From the NCBI GenBank assembly GCA_963666055.2, contig CAXWPH010000014.1, forward strand, positions 384,001 to 448,000: a stretch of 64,000 nt of DNA, read 5' to 3'. Position numbers and translations under genes: made by a program. A model generated the notes under the pieces. That model had not been told where the DNA came from and searched no databases. It worked only from the letters and a program-made list of their open reading frames with translations. This document shows positions 17,881 through 37,902 of this stretch, piece after piece. The number at the start of each line of letters is the position of its first letter. Position 1 is the first letter of the stretch. Origin of the DNA: Acidobacteriota bacterium (GTDB lineage Bacteria > Acidobacteriota > UBA890 > WLXD01).

Positions 17881-17941
17881 ACTTGCTTACCGCGTGTCAA
17901 GAAAGAGTGAGGTACGCTAGGGTCGACCAAGGGAGAGTCCT

Positions 17942-18168
17942 ATGGGGATCGAGCTTGAGCTGTACGTTCTTCTGGTGGTTCTTGGCGTCGGCACATCGGT
18001 ATTCGCGGTCTTCGAGGTGGAGACCGCGCGATGGCGCAAGGTGCTGAAATGGCTCATCCTCAGCGCCGGAACGGTCGGTCTGTACTACGCCGTGGGGCAT
18101 CTCGCGCTGGTGTTCCCTCTGAGTCTCATGACCGTGGGCACCGTCGTCCACTTCTCGTGGTGCCGCCG
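17942..18168 (+). pseudogene. Small membrane protein, apparently 3'-truncated and running into the GNAT gene
   Basis: Three TM segments up to HFSWCRR, then an out-of-frame read of the GNAT coding sequence to 18304. Confidence 0.55.
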
Positions 18169-18182
18169 AGCTGATCGGGTAC

Positions 18183-18893
18183 ATGGTCGCTCATCCGCGC
18201 TTCTACGGTGTCGTCGCCGAGTCCGAAGGTCGGACTGTCGGCAGCAACTTCATGGACGAGCGGGGCGAGGTCTTCGGCCTGGGTCCGATCACCGTCGATC
18301 CTGAGTTTCAAGACAGGTCGGTCGGTCGCCAGCTGATGCAGCACATGATCGATCGGACGACCGACAAGGGCGCGCCGAGCGTTCGTTTGCTCCAAGCGGC
18401 ATACAACAACGGCTCGTTGTGTCTGTACCAGAAGCTCGGCTTCGACACGTGCGAGCCGATCTCCAATCTCTGCGGCGAACCGCTGGGAATCGAAATACCC
18501 GGTCATGTCGTTCGGAAAGCGGACCTGGCGGACGTGCCCGCGTGCAACGAGATTTGCAGGAACGTGCACGGTTTCGATCGCAGCGGCCAGTTGGAGGATG
18601 CGATCGGCCAGGGGGGCGCGTCGGTGGTCGAGTGCGACGGTGCCGTTACCGGCTATTCAACGGGGGTCCTTTTCTTCGAGCACAGCGTCGCGATGACCAA
18701 CGACGCTTTGAAGGCTCTCATCGGCGCGGCGTCCGAGATTCCCCACCCGGGGTTCCTGCTGCCGGCGCGTAACGGCGAAGTCTTTCGTTGGTGCCTGGAG
18801 AATGGCCTGCGCCAAACGCAGTTGATGACCTTAATGGCGCGCGGACAGTACAGAGAGCCTGCCGGACCGTACCTGTGTTCGATCCTCTACTAG
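18183..18893 (+). CDS. GNAT-family acetyltransferase, probably lacking its N-terminus
   Basis: GPITVDPEFQDRSVGRQLM acetyl-CoA motif; SLCLYQKLGF; the start lies mid-domain. Confidence 0.8.
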   Translation: MVAHPRFYGVVAESEGRTVGSNFMDERGEVFGLGPITVDPEFQDRSVGRQLMQHMIDRTTDKGAPSVRLLQAAYNNGSLCLYQKLGFDTCEPISNLCGEPLGIEIPGHVVRKADLADVPACNEICRNVHGFDRSGQLEDAIGQGGASVVECDGAVTGYSTGVLFFEHSVAMTNDALKALIGAASEIPHPGFLLPARNGEVFRWCLENGLRQTQLMTLMARGQYREPAGPYLCSILY

Positions 18894-18907
18894 GCTCGCG
18901 CTGGCGC

Positions 18908-35122: not shown

Positions 35123-37695
35123 TGATCGGCAAGACGCTCGGCCACTACGAGATCCTGTCCCCGCTCGGTGAAGGCGGAATGGGGCAGGTGTATCGAGCAC
35201 GCGACACGACGCTGGATCGTGATGTCGCCATCAAGGTGCTGCCGGAGGACTTCGCCAGCGATGCCAACCGGCTGGCTCGCTTCGAGCGCGAAGCCAAGCT
35301 GCTCGCCTCCCTGAACCATCCCAACATCGCCACGATCTTCGGCTTCGATGAATCCGACGGCGTGCGGTTCATCGCCATGGAGCTGGTCGAGGGGCAAAGC
35401 CTCGCCGAGCGCATCCAAGCTTCCGGTCGCATCGAGGTCGATGAAGCGCTTGAGATCGCCCGACGGATCGCCCTGGCGCTGGAGGCTGCTCACGAGGCTG
35501 GCGTCATCCATCGTGACCTCAAGCCGGCCAACGTGCAGGTGGCACCCGACGGCACCGTCAAGGTGCTCGACTTCGGCATCGCCAAGGTCCACGAGCCGGA
35601 GGCGTTATCGGATCTGAGCCAGTCACCCACCGCGATGCTACCCACGGCGACCGGCGTGATCATGGGTACGGCGCACTACATGAGCCCGGAGCAGGCGCGG
35701 GGCAAGCCTCTGGACAAGCGCACCGACATCTTCTCGTTCGGCTGTGTGTTGTACGAGATGCTGACCGGACAGACAGCCTTCGCTGGCGAGACTATCAGCG
35801 ATGTTCTCGTAGCGGTCATCGAGCGGGAGCCTGATTGGAGATTCGTGCCAACGACCACACCACCGTTGGTACTACGGCTGTTGCGGCGTTGCTTGGAGAA
35901 AGACCCCAGGGATGGTTGTCGGTGCGCGTCCGGCAGCCTCGGACGAACCGTGCGTATCGGCGGGGTCGTGGTTGTTGCACTGATTGCCGGTTACCTCTTG
36001 CGCGGTTTGGGGTCGACTGCGCCTCCGGAAGTCTGGAGCCTGCATCAGGTTACCCGCTCGCAGTCGATCGAGAGCCAGCCCAGCCTGTCGCCGGACGGGC
36101 AGTTCATCGTTTACACGAGCAACCAGCGCGGCAACCACGACATCTACTGGCAGCTCGTCGGCGGGCAGAATGTGCAGAACCTGACGGAGAGCTCGGCAGC
36201 CGACGACCACCAGCCGTCGTTCTCCCCCGACGGCAGCCGCATCGCGTTCCGCTCCGAACGCGGCGATGGCGGTATCTACATCATGGGTGGCTTCGGCGAG
36301 AACCCGCGACCATTGATCGGTCGTGGGTACGATCCGTCGTGGTCGCCCGACGGCGAATGGGTCGTCTTCTCGGATCTTGGCGTCGCCGACCCGACGAACC
36401 TGATTCGCGGCGGCCTTGCCAAGGTCGAGGTTAGCGATCCGACGAACGTCGTGGAGCTTCACGACAACGGCTACCTGCCCAGATTCTCGCCGAACGGGCA
36501 TCGGATCGCCTACTTCGACTTCTCCGAAGGCGATCAGCGCAGTATCTTCACGATCCCGGCCGGCGGTGGTGACGCGGTACAAGTCACCGACGGCGCGGCA
36601 GTCGACTGGGCTCCGGCGTGGGCTCCCGATGGACGGCGACTCTACTTTTCAAGTGACCGGGGCGGAATCCAGAACATCTGGTGGGTGGAGATCGACGAGG
36701 CATCAGGCGTGCCGCGAGGTCAGCCGCAGCGGGTGAGCACCGGCGAAGCTGACCAGGGATGGTTGTCGGTGTCGGGCGATGGCTCATCGATCGCTTACAC
36801 GGCGCGTCGCGCGCCCACGAACTTGCAGCGTGTGGCGTTCGATCCGGAATCCCGACGGGTAATCGGGGCCCCCGAGCCAATCACCGGCGGCTCGAATTCG
36901 GTGATCAGATTCGACATCTCTCCCGATGGCGAGTGGTTGGTGTATGCAACCCAGGCAAGTCCGGGCGACCTGTACTTGATCTCTGCCGATGGCAGCGGAC
37001 AGGTGCAGCAACTGACCGACGACGAGTACTGGGATCGGAATCCGAGGTTCTCGCCTGACGGTCGGCAAATCGTCTACTACAACGACCGAGGCAGCTCGAC
37101 GGAGCTCTGGCGCATGGATATCGGGTCGCGAATCACTAGCCAGCTTACCCGGGTCGGCGAATGGACCGTCTTCGACCCCGTGTTCTCACCCGATGGGTCG
37201 AGGCTCATGTATCGCGTCATCACCGACGACGACTACGTCATCTACATGATGTCCCTGGATCAAGAGTGGGAGTCGCAGACGCCGGAGATGATCCCGAACC
37301 CTGAAGGAGACACTTTCCAACCTAACTACTGGTCGCCGAACGGCCGCTGGATCGTCGGTTGGAGCGACGCCTTCACCGACCCCCGCCCGCTTCTGTTTGA
37401 CGTCGAGACCAGGGAGTACATAGAGCTCGGTGGCTTCCGCGGTCACGCTCACCCGGCTTGGCTCGGAAACGACTACCTCGTGTTCGTCGGCACAGCCGAG
37501 ACGCGCGGCGTAGCAACGCGACGAGAGGAGATGCTGCTGATGGATCGGCGCACCGGCGAAACGGTGCTGCTGCTCAACGACGGGCCCGACTGGACATTCG
37601 AGGAACAGATGGTCGTGTCACCCGACGGTCGCTGGCTCTACTTCATTCGCCGCGAGCTCGAGTCGGACATCTGGTTGCTGACCCGCGAGCGTTGA
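35119..37695 (+). CDS. K5: Ser/Thr kinase-TM-TolB/PD40 propeller protein; open frame, but the kinase C-terminal helix/linker appears deleted
   Basis: HRDLKPAN, DFG, YMSPEQ; many P.(F/W)SPDG repeats; different C-terminus (ESDIWLL); coupled to the K4 stop. Confidence 0.88.
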   Translation: MMIGKTLGHYEILSPLGEGGMGQVYRARDTTLDRDVAIKVLPEDFASDANRLARFEREAKLLASLNHPNIATIFGFDESDGVRFIAMELVEGQSLAERIQASGRIEVDEALEIARRIALALEAAHEAGVIHRDLKPANVQVAPDGTVKVLDFGIAKVHEPEALSDLSQSPTAMLPTATGVIMGTAHYMSPEQARGKPLDKRTDIFSFGCVLYEMLTGQTAFAGETISDVLVAVIEREPDWRFVPTTTPPLVLRLLRRCLEKDPRDGCRCASGSLGRTVRIGGVVVVALIAGYLLRGLGSTAPPEVWSLHQVTRSQSIESQPSLSPDGQFIVYTSNQRGNHDIYWQLVGGQNVQNLTESSAADDHQPSFSPDGSRIAFRSERGDGGIYIMGGFGENPRPLIGRGYDPSWSPDGEWVVFSDLGVADPTNLIRGGLAKVEVSDPTNVVELHDNGYLPRFSPNGHRIAYFDFSEGDQRSIFTIPAGGGDAVQVTDGAAVDWAPAWAPDGRRLYFSSDRGGIQNIWWVEIDEASGVPRGQPQRVSTGEADQGWLSVSGDGSSIAYTARRAPTNLQRVAFDPESRRVIGAPEPITGGSNSVIRFDISPDGEWLVYATQASPGDLYLISADGSGQVQQLTDDEYWDRNPRFSPDGRQIVYYNDRGSSTELWRMDIGSRITSQLTRVGEWTVFDPVFSPDGSRLMYRVITDDDYVIYMMSLDQEWESQTPEMIPNPEGDTFQPNYWSPNGRWIVGWSDAFTDPRPLLFDVETREYIELGGFRGHAHPAWLGNDYLVFVGTAETRGVATRREEMLLMDRRTGETVLLLNDGPDWTFEEQMVVSPDGRWLYFIRRELESDIWLLTRER

Positions 37696-37728
37696 CGGTT
37701 ACCTATCGTTGTCCCGGATTCTCTGCCG

Positions 37729-37788
37729 TTGGATCTCGTACGCCCTGACGATACGCTTCAGACGCTCACCCACCCCTCTGGGAGCGCC
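37729..37788 (+). promoter_or_regulatory. Repeated kinase promoter/leader module, copy 5
   Basis: TTGGAT-N17-TACGCT-N31-ATG. Confidence 0.6.
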
Positions 37789-37902
37789 ATGGAACCCGGC
37801 ACCAAACTAGGCCCCTACGAGATCCTCGAGCAGCTCGGTGCAGGCGGCATGGGAGAGGTGTACCTGGGGGCTTCCGTTATCGCATTGGCCACGGGTCACT
37901 AG
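37789..37902 (+). pseudogene. K6: kinase 5' stub; right edge of the array
   Basis: [26 protein letters not shown], then unrelated sequence and TAG. Confidence 0.88.

What the first reader, a model, noticed from the sequence alone, without database searches (positions are those of the whole stretch)
17881..37902. 20-kb array of receptor-like Ser/Thr kinases with constant kinase heads and variable propeller sensors: candidate recombination-diversified receptor repertoire
Seen: five long co-oriented kinase-TM-beta-propeller genes (19158, 24223, 27289, 32431, 35119), two 5' stubs (21836, 37789), two 3' stubs (~18908, ~22670), a promoter module repeated five times and a 3' end motif repeated six times, with unrelated cargo in between. 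The kinase N-halves fall into just two near-identical types, while the extracytoplasmic propellers differ strongly. No integrase, transposase or reverse transcriptase is visible. Known: Hanks-type kinases fused to PD40/TolB-like propellers are expanded in Acidobacteria. Inference: conserved ends and internal anchors act as homologous-recombination handles that swap ligand-binding modules onto a shared signalling output, as in polymorphic-toxin cassettes or plant receptor-kinase clusters. I do not know of a description of this architecture.
Basis: partly seen in the sequence, partly recalled or inferred. Interest (0 to 1): 0.85.

Follow-up and report, generated by a model that had tools for sequence, protein, structure and literature searches.

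The report
Shuffled sensor-kinase genes in decaying island
Five damaged membrane-kinase genes and their leftover ends fill a variable island beside an integrase remnant; they belong to a genome-wide family that swaps kinase and propeller parts, likely by ordinary recombination at conserved gene ends, and that may serve as a diversified set of receptors.

Summary
The array is real, but it is neither unique nor intact. All five kinase-TM-double-propeller genes are damaged: one stop, three frameshifts (two confirmed by short-read contigs) and one ~30-aa deletion. The array fills a slot between degP and an HTH gene. The slot is empty in one congener and holds other cargo in two.

The genome holds 29 head-to-tail family genes, 48 5' stubs and 43 3' fragments in 46 clusters. 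Domain shuffling is shown: kinase, propeller-1 and propeller-2 trees reject each other (AU p<=0.002), and contigs from four runs carry K2's C-half fused in frame to another kinase. Gene ends are over-conserved at silent sites and over-represented at cargo junctions (17 of 106, 5 expected), but 89 of 106 junctions lie elsewhere.

Best reading: RecA-type recombination, likely homology-facilitated illegitimate recombination, among paralogues in islands, with no dedicated recombinase. Repeated top-face positions of propeller 2 are hypervariable (omega about 1.4-2 against all silent sites, about 1 against their own), which hints at a receptor repertoire like fungal NWD genes. Earlier scan notes report such stub arrays in other genomes.

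The parts
16198..17829 (+). degP/HtrA protease, conserved left flank
   Evidence: Pfam Trypsin_2 + PDZ; one match in each of 5 of 5 relatives searched
17852..17891 (+). degP terminator-like hairpin followed by a 7-bp word that recurs at 38108; possible left island border (inferred)
   Evidence: sequence; hairpin abuts the HTH stop in the empty site of G003
17942..18168 (+). small membrane-protein gene, cut at about 18168; complete (100 aa) in G002
18183..18893 (+). GNAT acetyltransferase cargo, probably 5'-truncated at the 18168 junction (inferred)
   Evidence: Pfam; junction confirmed by contigs X1 and X2
18940..19014 (+). solo kinase-gene tail (T)
19098..21836 (+). upstream module P + K1 (type-B kinase, TM, two propellers, T); nonsense codon at 19557
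21836..22787 (+). 5' stub (95 nt) + unknown 181-aa cargo (22047-22592) + solo tail; twin at C6:270626-271577 behind another kinase
   Evidence: twin is 97.6% identical in the cargo, 83% in the propeller upstream, and has a different sequence after the tail; Atlas gives hypothetical protein only
22824..24124 (.). cargo: heavy-metal-resistance-family protein (-) and Crp/Fnr regulator (+)
   Evidence: Pfam; tail-cargo-P-head join confirmed by contigs
24163..26866 (+). P + K2 (type-A kinase); +1 frameshift near 24578; an alternative in-frame kinase joins at 24830 in public runs
26864..27013 (.). 150-bp dispersed hairpin repeat (REP/MITE-like)
   Evidence: 132 blastn hits in the genome, 100 of them >=120 nt
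27229..29975 (+). P + K3 (type A); frameshift near 28530
   Evidence: contigs X1 and X2 span it with no gap
30081..32066 (-). FAD oxidoreductase cargo (cluster members named spermidine dehydrogenase); 96% twin at C15:898-900 kb, 94% copy in another island of G002
32371..35122 (+). P + K4 (type B); frameshift near 33035; ectodomain modelled as 12 beta-blades closed by the T strand-helix
35122..37695 (+). K5 (type-A kinase, PD40-rich propellers, no T motif); start overlaps the K4 stop; about 30 aa missing at the kinase C-end
   Evidence: contigs in X1 and X2 run on with other sequence at 35929
37731..37867 (+). P + 5' stub (79 nt)
37951..38103 (+). C-terminal 50 codons of a tyrosine recombinase, including the presumed catalytic Tyr
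   Evidence: 70% identical to the longer G002 remnant that passes PF00589 (29 bits, cut-off 27.1); the window piece alone has no Pfam hit; open frames of about 375 aa in G004 and G007
38110..38412 (-). HTH_17 gene, conserved right flank (then GAF-GGDEF-HD gene 38405-40780)

Best explanation
This is a decaying variable island in which members of a genome-wide family of kinase-TM-double-propeller genes have accumulated and swapped parts, likely through host homologous recombination at their conserved ends and kinase motifs rather than a dedicated recombinase. Steps. (1) Shown: the degP-HTH slot differs among congeners and ends in an integrase remnant; inferred: an integrative element founded it. 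(2) Shown: kinase, propeller 1 and propeller 2 have different histories; inferred: crossovers and conversion in conserved blocks make the chimeras. (3) Shown: heads and tails survive as short co-oriented stubs with scattered break points, and some cargo blocks end in them; inferred: incoming DNA pairs at a head or tail and joins illegitimately at its other end (HFIR), each round leaving new anchors that later double crossovers reuse. (4) Inferred: intact copies elsewhere in the genome work as inner-membrane receptor kinases whose periplasmic propeller top face binds ligands, and shuffling plus selection varies that face. The five copies here are likely non-functional.
For: Slot size degP to GGDEF: 372 bp in G003, about 1.2 kb in G004, about 1.9 kb in G007, 9.6 kb in G002. 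Tyrosine integrases lie within 10 kb of kinase-end elements in 15 of 26 cases against 22.8% expected, p about 1e-4 (two XerC/D-like best hits left out, two adjacent pieces merged). AU tests on 28 genes: each domain rejects the other two trees, p<=0.0016. K1/K4 dS is 0.37, 0.83, 1.54 and 0.21 for kinase N, kinase C, propeller 1 and propeller 2; C6_297267/C13_51259 have dS 0 in the N-lobe and 1.7 in the propellers. All 4 runs laid show K2 from 24830 joined to another in-frame kinase sequence at the D-x-W motif, not found in G000-G004. Four-fold third-position identity between kinase types: head 58/48%, tail 72%, HRD region 39%, propellers 34-35% (35 non-independent pairs). Among 93 short fragments, 44 touch the head, 31 the tail and 5 are internal kinase pieces (5 more hits genome-wide), though 93-100% of 25-40 aa test pieces from residues 60-179 were detected (77% for 25-aa pieces at 180-239). 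46 of 54 stubs end within 190 nt, at scattered points. Neighbouring end elements are co-oriented in 90 of 102 pairs. Shared cargo blocks end at P/H/T in 17 of 106 cases against 5.1 expected. comEC and dprA are present with long open frames.
Against: 89 of 106 block ends are not at kinase ends, and IS-like elements are active in the same islands, so kinase anchors are a minority route. The tail is also a structural strand-helix, and the head and upstream module may be held by protein or promoter function, so part of the conservation needs no recombination role. A single deletion also leaves end-touching fragments. Natural competence is not shown; comEC and dprA rang in 10 and 11 of 14 control genomes. 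The alternative join at 24830 may come from another species in the sample. Positive selection is not proven: omega against the sites' own silent rate is 0.7-1.1 in the conservative count, and propeller-1 clades give 0.94 and 0.65.
Confidence: 0.62

Rival explanations
1. Plain birth-and-death: tandem duplication and deletion in IS- and integrase-rich islands leave kinase debris; the ends do no work as anchors, and mosaicism is incidental gene conversion.
For: All 5 genes here, and 13 of 29 head-to-tail genes genome-wide, are damaged. 89 of 106 junctions are away from ends. IS copies at 98-99.7% are shared with G002.
Against: Strong excess of very short end fragments over internal ones despite similar detectability. 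Silent-site conservation peaks at the ends. A stub-cargo-tail unit is 97.6% identical at two loci with different flanks. Junctions are enriched 3.3-fold at ends.
Confidence: 0.25
2. A programmed, locus-specific receptor-diversifying system, in which this array stores silent cassettes that a dedicated enzyme feeds into an expression site.
For: Co-orientation, the repeated upstream module, mosaic genes and hypervariable propeller-2 positions.
Against: No common break point among 54 stubs. No PF00078 reverse transcriptase in the 95.7% complete genome and no adenine bias. No expression site: 5 upstream modules here and 65 full copies genome-wide. Partners are spread over many contigs. Relatives lack this array at this site.
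Confidence: 0.05
3. Integron-like or promoter-capture system: P-head stubs are kept because they drive the cargo genes behind them.
For: The gene after a stub is co-oriented in 33 of 52 cases (p=0.035 against 50%). The upstream module is very conserved and genus-specific (5 of 26 genomes of the order, all genus g1).
Against: 63% co-orientation is below the genome background of 68% and not different from tails (24 of 46; Fisher p=0.31). No attC-like fold was found in P (alignment fold empty). The sigma-70 scan found 0 sites in 17800-37790, so P as a promoter is only inferred.
Confidence: 0.06
4. Long-read mis-assembly or polishing error created the array and its frameshifts.
For: Three breaks are 1-nt indels in short homopolymer runs. 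Contig C8 has an exact inverted duplicate. No contig spans the array.
Against: Contigs from two studies confirm four stretches of 1-2 kb with no differences, including the K3 break; X1 confirms the K2 break. No K gene has a near-exact full-length copy elsewhere. Both borders are shared with G002.
Confidence: 0.02

Closest known systems
Homology-facilitated illegitimate recombination arrays: Rhs C-terminal displacement and Vibrio T6SS effector-immunity arrays (PMC5361080, passages read)
   Same: A conserved stretch anchors incoming DNA, and the other end joins illegitimately, leaving polar arrays of orphan gene ends without an integrase.
   Different: Here both ends and an upstream module serve as anchors, the remnants are very short, the cargo is unrelated metabolic genes rather than toxin-immunity pairs, and the anchors are spread over 46 clusters.
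Staphylococcus aureus lpl tandem paralogue cluster in island nuSa-alpha (PMC2568036, abstract read)
   Same: Tandem paralogues in a genomic island; recombination at conserved blocks makes 5' and 3' regions incongruent; the unit that moves can be 3' end + spacer + next 5' end.
   Different: lpl has one central conserved block at one main locus; here exchange is genome-wide, involves several blocks, and carries foreign cargo.
Fungal NWD / het-d / het-e non-self recognition repertoire (PMC1805685, abstract read)
   Same: A multi-copy signalling family with a propeller sensor, exchange between loci, pseudogenes, and a few variable positions per blade on the interaction face.
   Different: Those are cytoplasmic NACHT-WD40 proteins that exchange single near-identical repeats, with positive selection shown; here whole propellers or parts swap between membrane kinases, and selection is only suggested.
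Expanded Hanks-type Ser/Thr kinase paralogues of Acidobacteriota (Solibacter, PMC3174227, passages read); kinase-WD40 fusions such as PkwA and RqkA (PMC5587647 passages; RqkA preprint search listing only)
   Same: Many kinase paralogues in one genome; kinase fused to a propeller. At least 7828 homologues of the K4 ectodomain at E<=1e-30 (only 7996 candidates scored), named ones mostly Acidobacteriota/Vicinamibacteria.
   Different: Solibacter paralogues are described as generally under 50% identical with no positive selection; here clades are 85-100% alike in patches, mosaic, island-borne and surrounded by stubs.
Integrons and diversity-generating retroelements (defining features recalled)
   Same: Variable cargo arrays; hypervariable binding positions.
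   Different: No site-specific junction, no attC-like fold, no reverse transcriptase found, no adenine bias.

Membership tests
Hanks-type receptor-like Ser/Thr kinase | Pkinase domain with Gly loop, VAIK, HRD, DFG and APE-type motifs (motifs recalled) | tested here: met
   PF00069 over cut-off; motifs present in the pieces of K1-K5 read with X at breaks; K1's catalytic-loop Lys is a stop and K5 lacks the C-end
Hanks-type receptor-like Ser/Thr kinase | single TM helix between kinase and sensor | tested here: met
   hydropathy peak at residues about 300-325 in 14 of 15 intact genes and in K1, K2, K4, K5; K3 below the 1.6 threshold; no topology predictor run
Hanks-type receptor-like Ser/Thr kinase | ligand-regulated kinase activity | not testable with these tools
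   needs biochemistry
HFIR / C-terminal displacement arrays | one homologous anchor and one scattered illegitimate junction; polar arrays | tested here: met
   54 scattered junctions; 90 of 102 co-oriented; 17 of 106 block ends at anchors
HFIR / C-terminal displacement arrays | RecA dependence and DNA uptake by transformation | tested here: inconclusive
   comEC and dprA present; competence not shown
Integron | IntI integrase with attI, and attC hairpins at cassette ends | tested here: not met
   no common junction, no consensus fold of P, only a 50-aa integrase remnant; IntI itself was not searched for by family
Diversity-generating retroelement | reverse transcriptase and adenine-specific variation | tested here: not met
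   0 PF00078 matches; change rates at A not above C or T
Tyrosine-integrase genomic island | integrase at one border, empty site in relatives, terminal direct repeat | tested here: inconclusive
   remnant and empty site found; the 7-bp repeat also occurs 3 more times in 17000-39000, so it is weak
NWD-like propeller receptor repertoire | positive selection on recurring interaction-face positions | tested here: inconclusive
   propeller 2, 18 copies: cross-validated pN/pS 1.8-2.1; parsimony omega 1.4-2.0 against all silent sites (3 of 4 splits CI>1) but 0.7-1.1 against own silent sites; propeller 1 not elevated above 1

The most novel reading that the evidence does not exclude
A bacterial genus maintains a genome-wide, recombining repertoire of receptor kinases, a prokaryotic counterpart of fungal NWD or plant receptor-kinase families. 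Shared kinase outputs are re-paired with propeller sensors whose top-face residues are under diversifying selection, and the family's own conserved ends have become universal, integrase-free adaptors that traffic cargo genes between islands and species.
Probability: 0.33. Interest if true: 0.82.

Novelty: new variant of a known kind. Interest (0 to 1): 0.55.

Why it matters
Acidobacteriota carry dozens of these kinase-propeller genes and their function is open. The data show that the family evolves by domain exchange and point to a few recurring propeller positions as the likely specificity code, which makes ligand and partner screens directly testable. They also give a measured case of a signalling gene family acting as recombination anchors for gene flow. 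The 20-kb array itself is a damaged snapshot, not the working system.

Tried and rejected
- Background frameshift rate against G002: 17 of 69 core ORFs were flagged, but most were shadow frames or N-terminal extensions, so it is inconclusive and not used.
- The search for related loci with the GGDEF gene returned 9 distant, irrelevant loci.
- No RNA holder was listed for 19000-28900, so expression is untested.
- The sigma-70 scan found no site.
- The joints table had short sides (20-31 nt) and was not used.
- The Atlas gave only hypothetical-protein clusters for the 22047 cargo.
- Foldseek gave generic tandem-propeller matches (LRP6, tricorn, TolB; TM about 0.3-0.38) and no close structure.
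- Samples from G007 (40 kb) and G011 (20 kb) showed no short head stubs or solo tails; G012 (40 kb) showed none with the promoter model. These are too small to call absence.
- Paper searches for this architecture: searches gave 0 papers; searches listed none describing it. The library lacks most subscription journals, and no supplements were read.
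Full report
OBSERVATION. The window is G000:C14:384001-448000 of a 5.73-Mb, 15-contig genome, 95.7% complete. 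Homologue names point to Acidobacteriota; the lineage was not fixed further. Kinases within a type are 78-82% identical in DNA, and K1 and K4 share propeller 2 at 86%. All five genes are damaged. Contigs from runs X1 and X2, two studies, reproduce four stretches of 1-2 kb exactly, including the K3 frameshift and the tail-cargo-P-head join. X1 reproduces the K2 frameshift; X1 may be the source sample. No contig spans the array.

PROTEINS. Intact paralogues are about 900 aa: Hanks kinase, one hydrophobic helix (14 of 15), then an all-beta ectodomain. AlphaFold2 on the K4 ectodomain with 99 homologues gave pLDDT 92 and pTM 0.84. Its strand pattern fits 12 blades, and the 3' motif is a final strand plus helix. 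Foldseek finds only generic tandem propellers. A periplasmic location is inferred. The family is large: 27 of 31 genomes sampled around G000 have kinase matches at E<=1e-40, 64 in G000, and 7828 of 7996 scored candidates match the ectodomain.

THE SITE. The degP-to-GGDEF interval is 372 bp in G003, holding only the HTH gene, about 1.2 kb in G004 (one porin-like gene by my reading), about 1.9 kb in G007 and 9.6 kb in G002. G002 shares the first ~290 bp of the island, then carries different genes, one solo tail and a 73-bp kinase piece. Three of its cargo blocks match other places in G000 at 87-96%. At the right end the window keeps 50 codons of a tyrosine recombinase, G002 keeps 124 (PF00589 just over cut-off) and G004 the last few. 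Related ~375-aa open frames exist in G004 and G007. The slot is therefore likely an old integrative-element site that has been refilled independently.

GENOME-WIDE PICTURE. Profiles from the window find 86 upstream modules, 110 heads and 95 tails (E<=0.01) in 46 clusters. A protein profile gives 29 head-to-tail genes (one an exact inverted duplicate; 13 with a break), 48 5' stubs, 43 3' fragments, and 29 complete kinases with other or cut C-termini. Integrases are enriched nearby (15 of 26 within 10 kb against 22.8%). Congeners G002, G003 and G004 show the same stub-cargo-tail pattern in the stretches fetched. The 18-bp core of the upstream module is confined to the 5 genomes of this genus among 26 of the order. 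Its -35/-10-like look is my reading; the consensus scan found nothing.

SHUFFLING IS SHOWN. Nearest neighbours switch along genes. K4's kinase C-lobe is 96-97% like C15:2110172 and its propeller 1 is 91-96% like C5:58341 and others. C6:297267 and C13:51259 are identical over the first ~140 codons and about 50% thereafter. In 28 genes, each domain alignment rejects the other two trees (AU p<=0.0016). One propeller-2 clade of 10 genes (support 100) splits into two propeller-1 clades (each 100) and includes a kinase of a third type. dS varies up to sevenfold between domains of one pair. In all four runs laid, a contig joins K2's C-half at 24830 to another sequence whose 30 printed letters read in frame as the kinase motif before D-x-W. 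In X4 the shared part is 1069 nt with no differences. That sequence was not found in G000-G004, so it may belong to another strain or species.

ENDS AS ANCHORS: SUPPORTED, BUT A MINORITY ROUTE. Stub junctions are scattered from 31 to 747 nt, 46 of 54 within 190 nt, with no shared site. Short fragments are mostly ends (44 heads, 31 tails, 5 internal kinase and 13 internal propeller pieces of 93; 5 further kinase-part hits genome-wide), although internal kinase pieces are easily detected. Silent sites are more conserved at the tail (72%) and head (58/48%) than in the equally conserved HRD region (39%; pairs not independent). End elements are co-oriented in 90 of 102 neighbouring pairs. The unit stub-cargo-tail at 21836-22787 has a twin on C6 with 97.6% identical cargo, an 83% propeller upstream and a different sequence after the tail. 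Of 106 ends of cargo blocks shared with congeners (8 at locus edges dropped; loci chosen for holding kinase elements), 17 lie within 100 bp of an end element against 5.1 expected, 8 in both genomes; 89 do not. IS-like repeats at 98-99.7% are also shared. Cargo orientation gives little sign of promoter capture (33 of 52 after stubs, 24 of 46 before tails, background 68%).

SENSOR DIVERSITY. In 18 copies of the K4-type propeller 2, variation recurs at the same blade positions: the first residue of strand A, two residues before it, and the end of strand B. That these form the top face is recalled WD40 topology; PMC4754046 and PMC5587647 (passages) describe top-face hotspots as the interaction surface. 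Positions chosen on half the blades and tested on the rest give pN/pS 1.8 and 2.1 (CI above 1) against 0.7 elsewhere. A parsimony count gives 1.4-2.0 against all silent sites (3 of 4 splits above 1) but 0.7-1.1 against the sites' own silent changes. Propeller-1 clades give 0.94 and 0.65. This suggests diversifying selection without proving it. There is no reverse transcriptase match and no adenine bias.

MECHANISM AND COMPARISON. The best fit is host recombination in islands. Crossovers in conserved blocks make chimeras, and homology-facilitated illegitimate recombination, as proposed for T6SS and Rhs arrays (PMC5361080, passages), leaves polar stubs that later act as anchors. The S. aureus lpl cluster (PMC2568036, abstract) is the closest tandem-paralogue precedent, and fungal NWD genes (PMC1805685, abstract) the closest sensor precedent. 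Kinase expansion in Acidobacteria is known (PMC3174227, passages). My searches found no paper on this architecture. Earlier notes of this scan report similar stub arrays in other genomes; they are unchecked leads and mostly read the pattern as decay with recombination, as I do.

VERDICT. A real feature and a new variant of a known kind. The array is a damaged local sample of a genus-wide recombining kinase family, not a programmed repertoire locus. Interest 0.55.

Noticed in passing
window 26864-27013: 150-bp hairpin-forming dispersed repeat with 132 hits genome-wide, some in tandem 83-bp units (C11:160024-160356); REP/MITE-like, no cognate transposase looked for.
   Followed up: partly
G000 C15:417909 and C15:790753: Two kinase genes 370 kb apart are about 90% alike in the N-lobe and nearly 100% after it, and share the same break near residue 806: a recent move of a damaged copy between islands.
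   Followed up: partly
G000 C8:28606-40109 and C8:56464-66961: Exact inverted duplicate of about 10 kb holding kinase genes; possibly an assembly artefact.
   Followed up: no
window 30081-32066: The spermidine-dehydrogenase-like oxidoreductase has many paralogues across the genome's islands (about 68% DNA over 1.8 kb in several, one at 96%): a second expanded island family.
   Followed up: partly
window 27034-27240: Spacer found right after tails at several other loci (C6:271600, C15:533338, C15:2119080, C8:34105, C10:13386), so tail-spacer-P behaves as a travelling unit like the lpl inter-gene unit.
   Followed up: partly
window 21836 and 35122: Type-B genes end with a stop that overlaps the start of a type-A kinase or its stub; the same pairing recurs at many loci, suggesting two-kinase operons.
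   Followed up: no
L005:13389-16070 (G002): The GAF-GGDEF-HD gene and the HTH_17 gene are one open frame in G002 but separate in the window.
   Followed up: no
L040, L041 (G012, another family of the order): Cargo blocks 88-97% identical to G000 island DNA, pointing to recent gene flow across families.
   Followed up: no
L019:8677-10309 (G002:C8:328677-330309): A 75-nt kinase head is joined directly to the propeller part of a gene 96% like G000 C8:31347: an internal deletion or head-to-propeller fusion.
   Followed up: no
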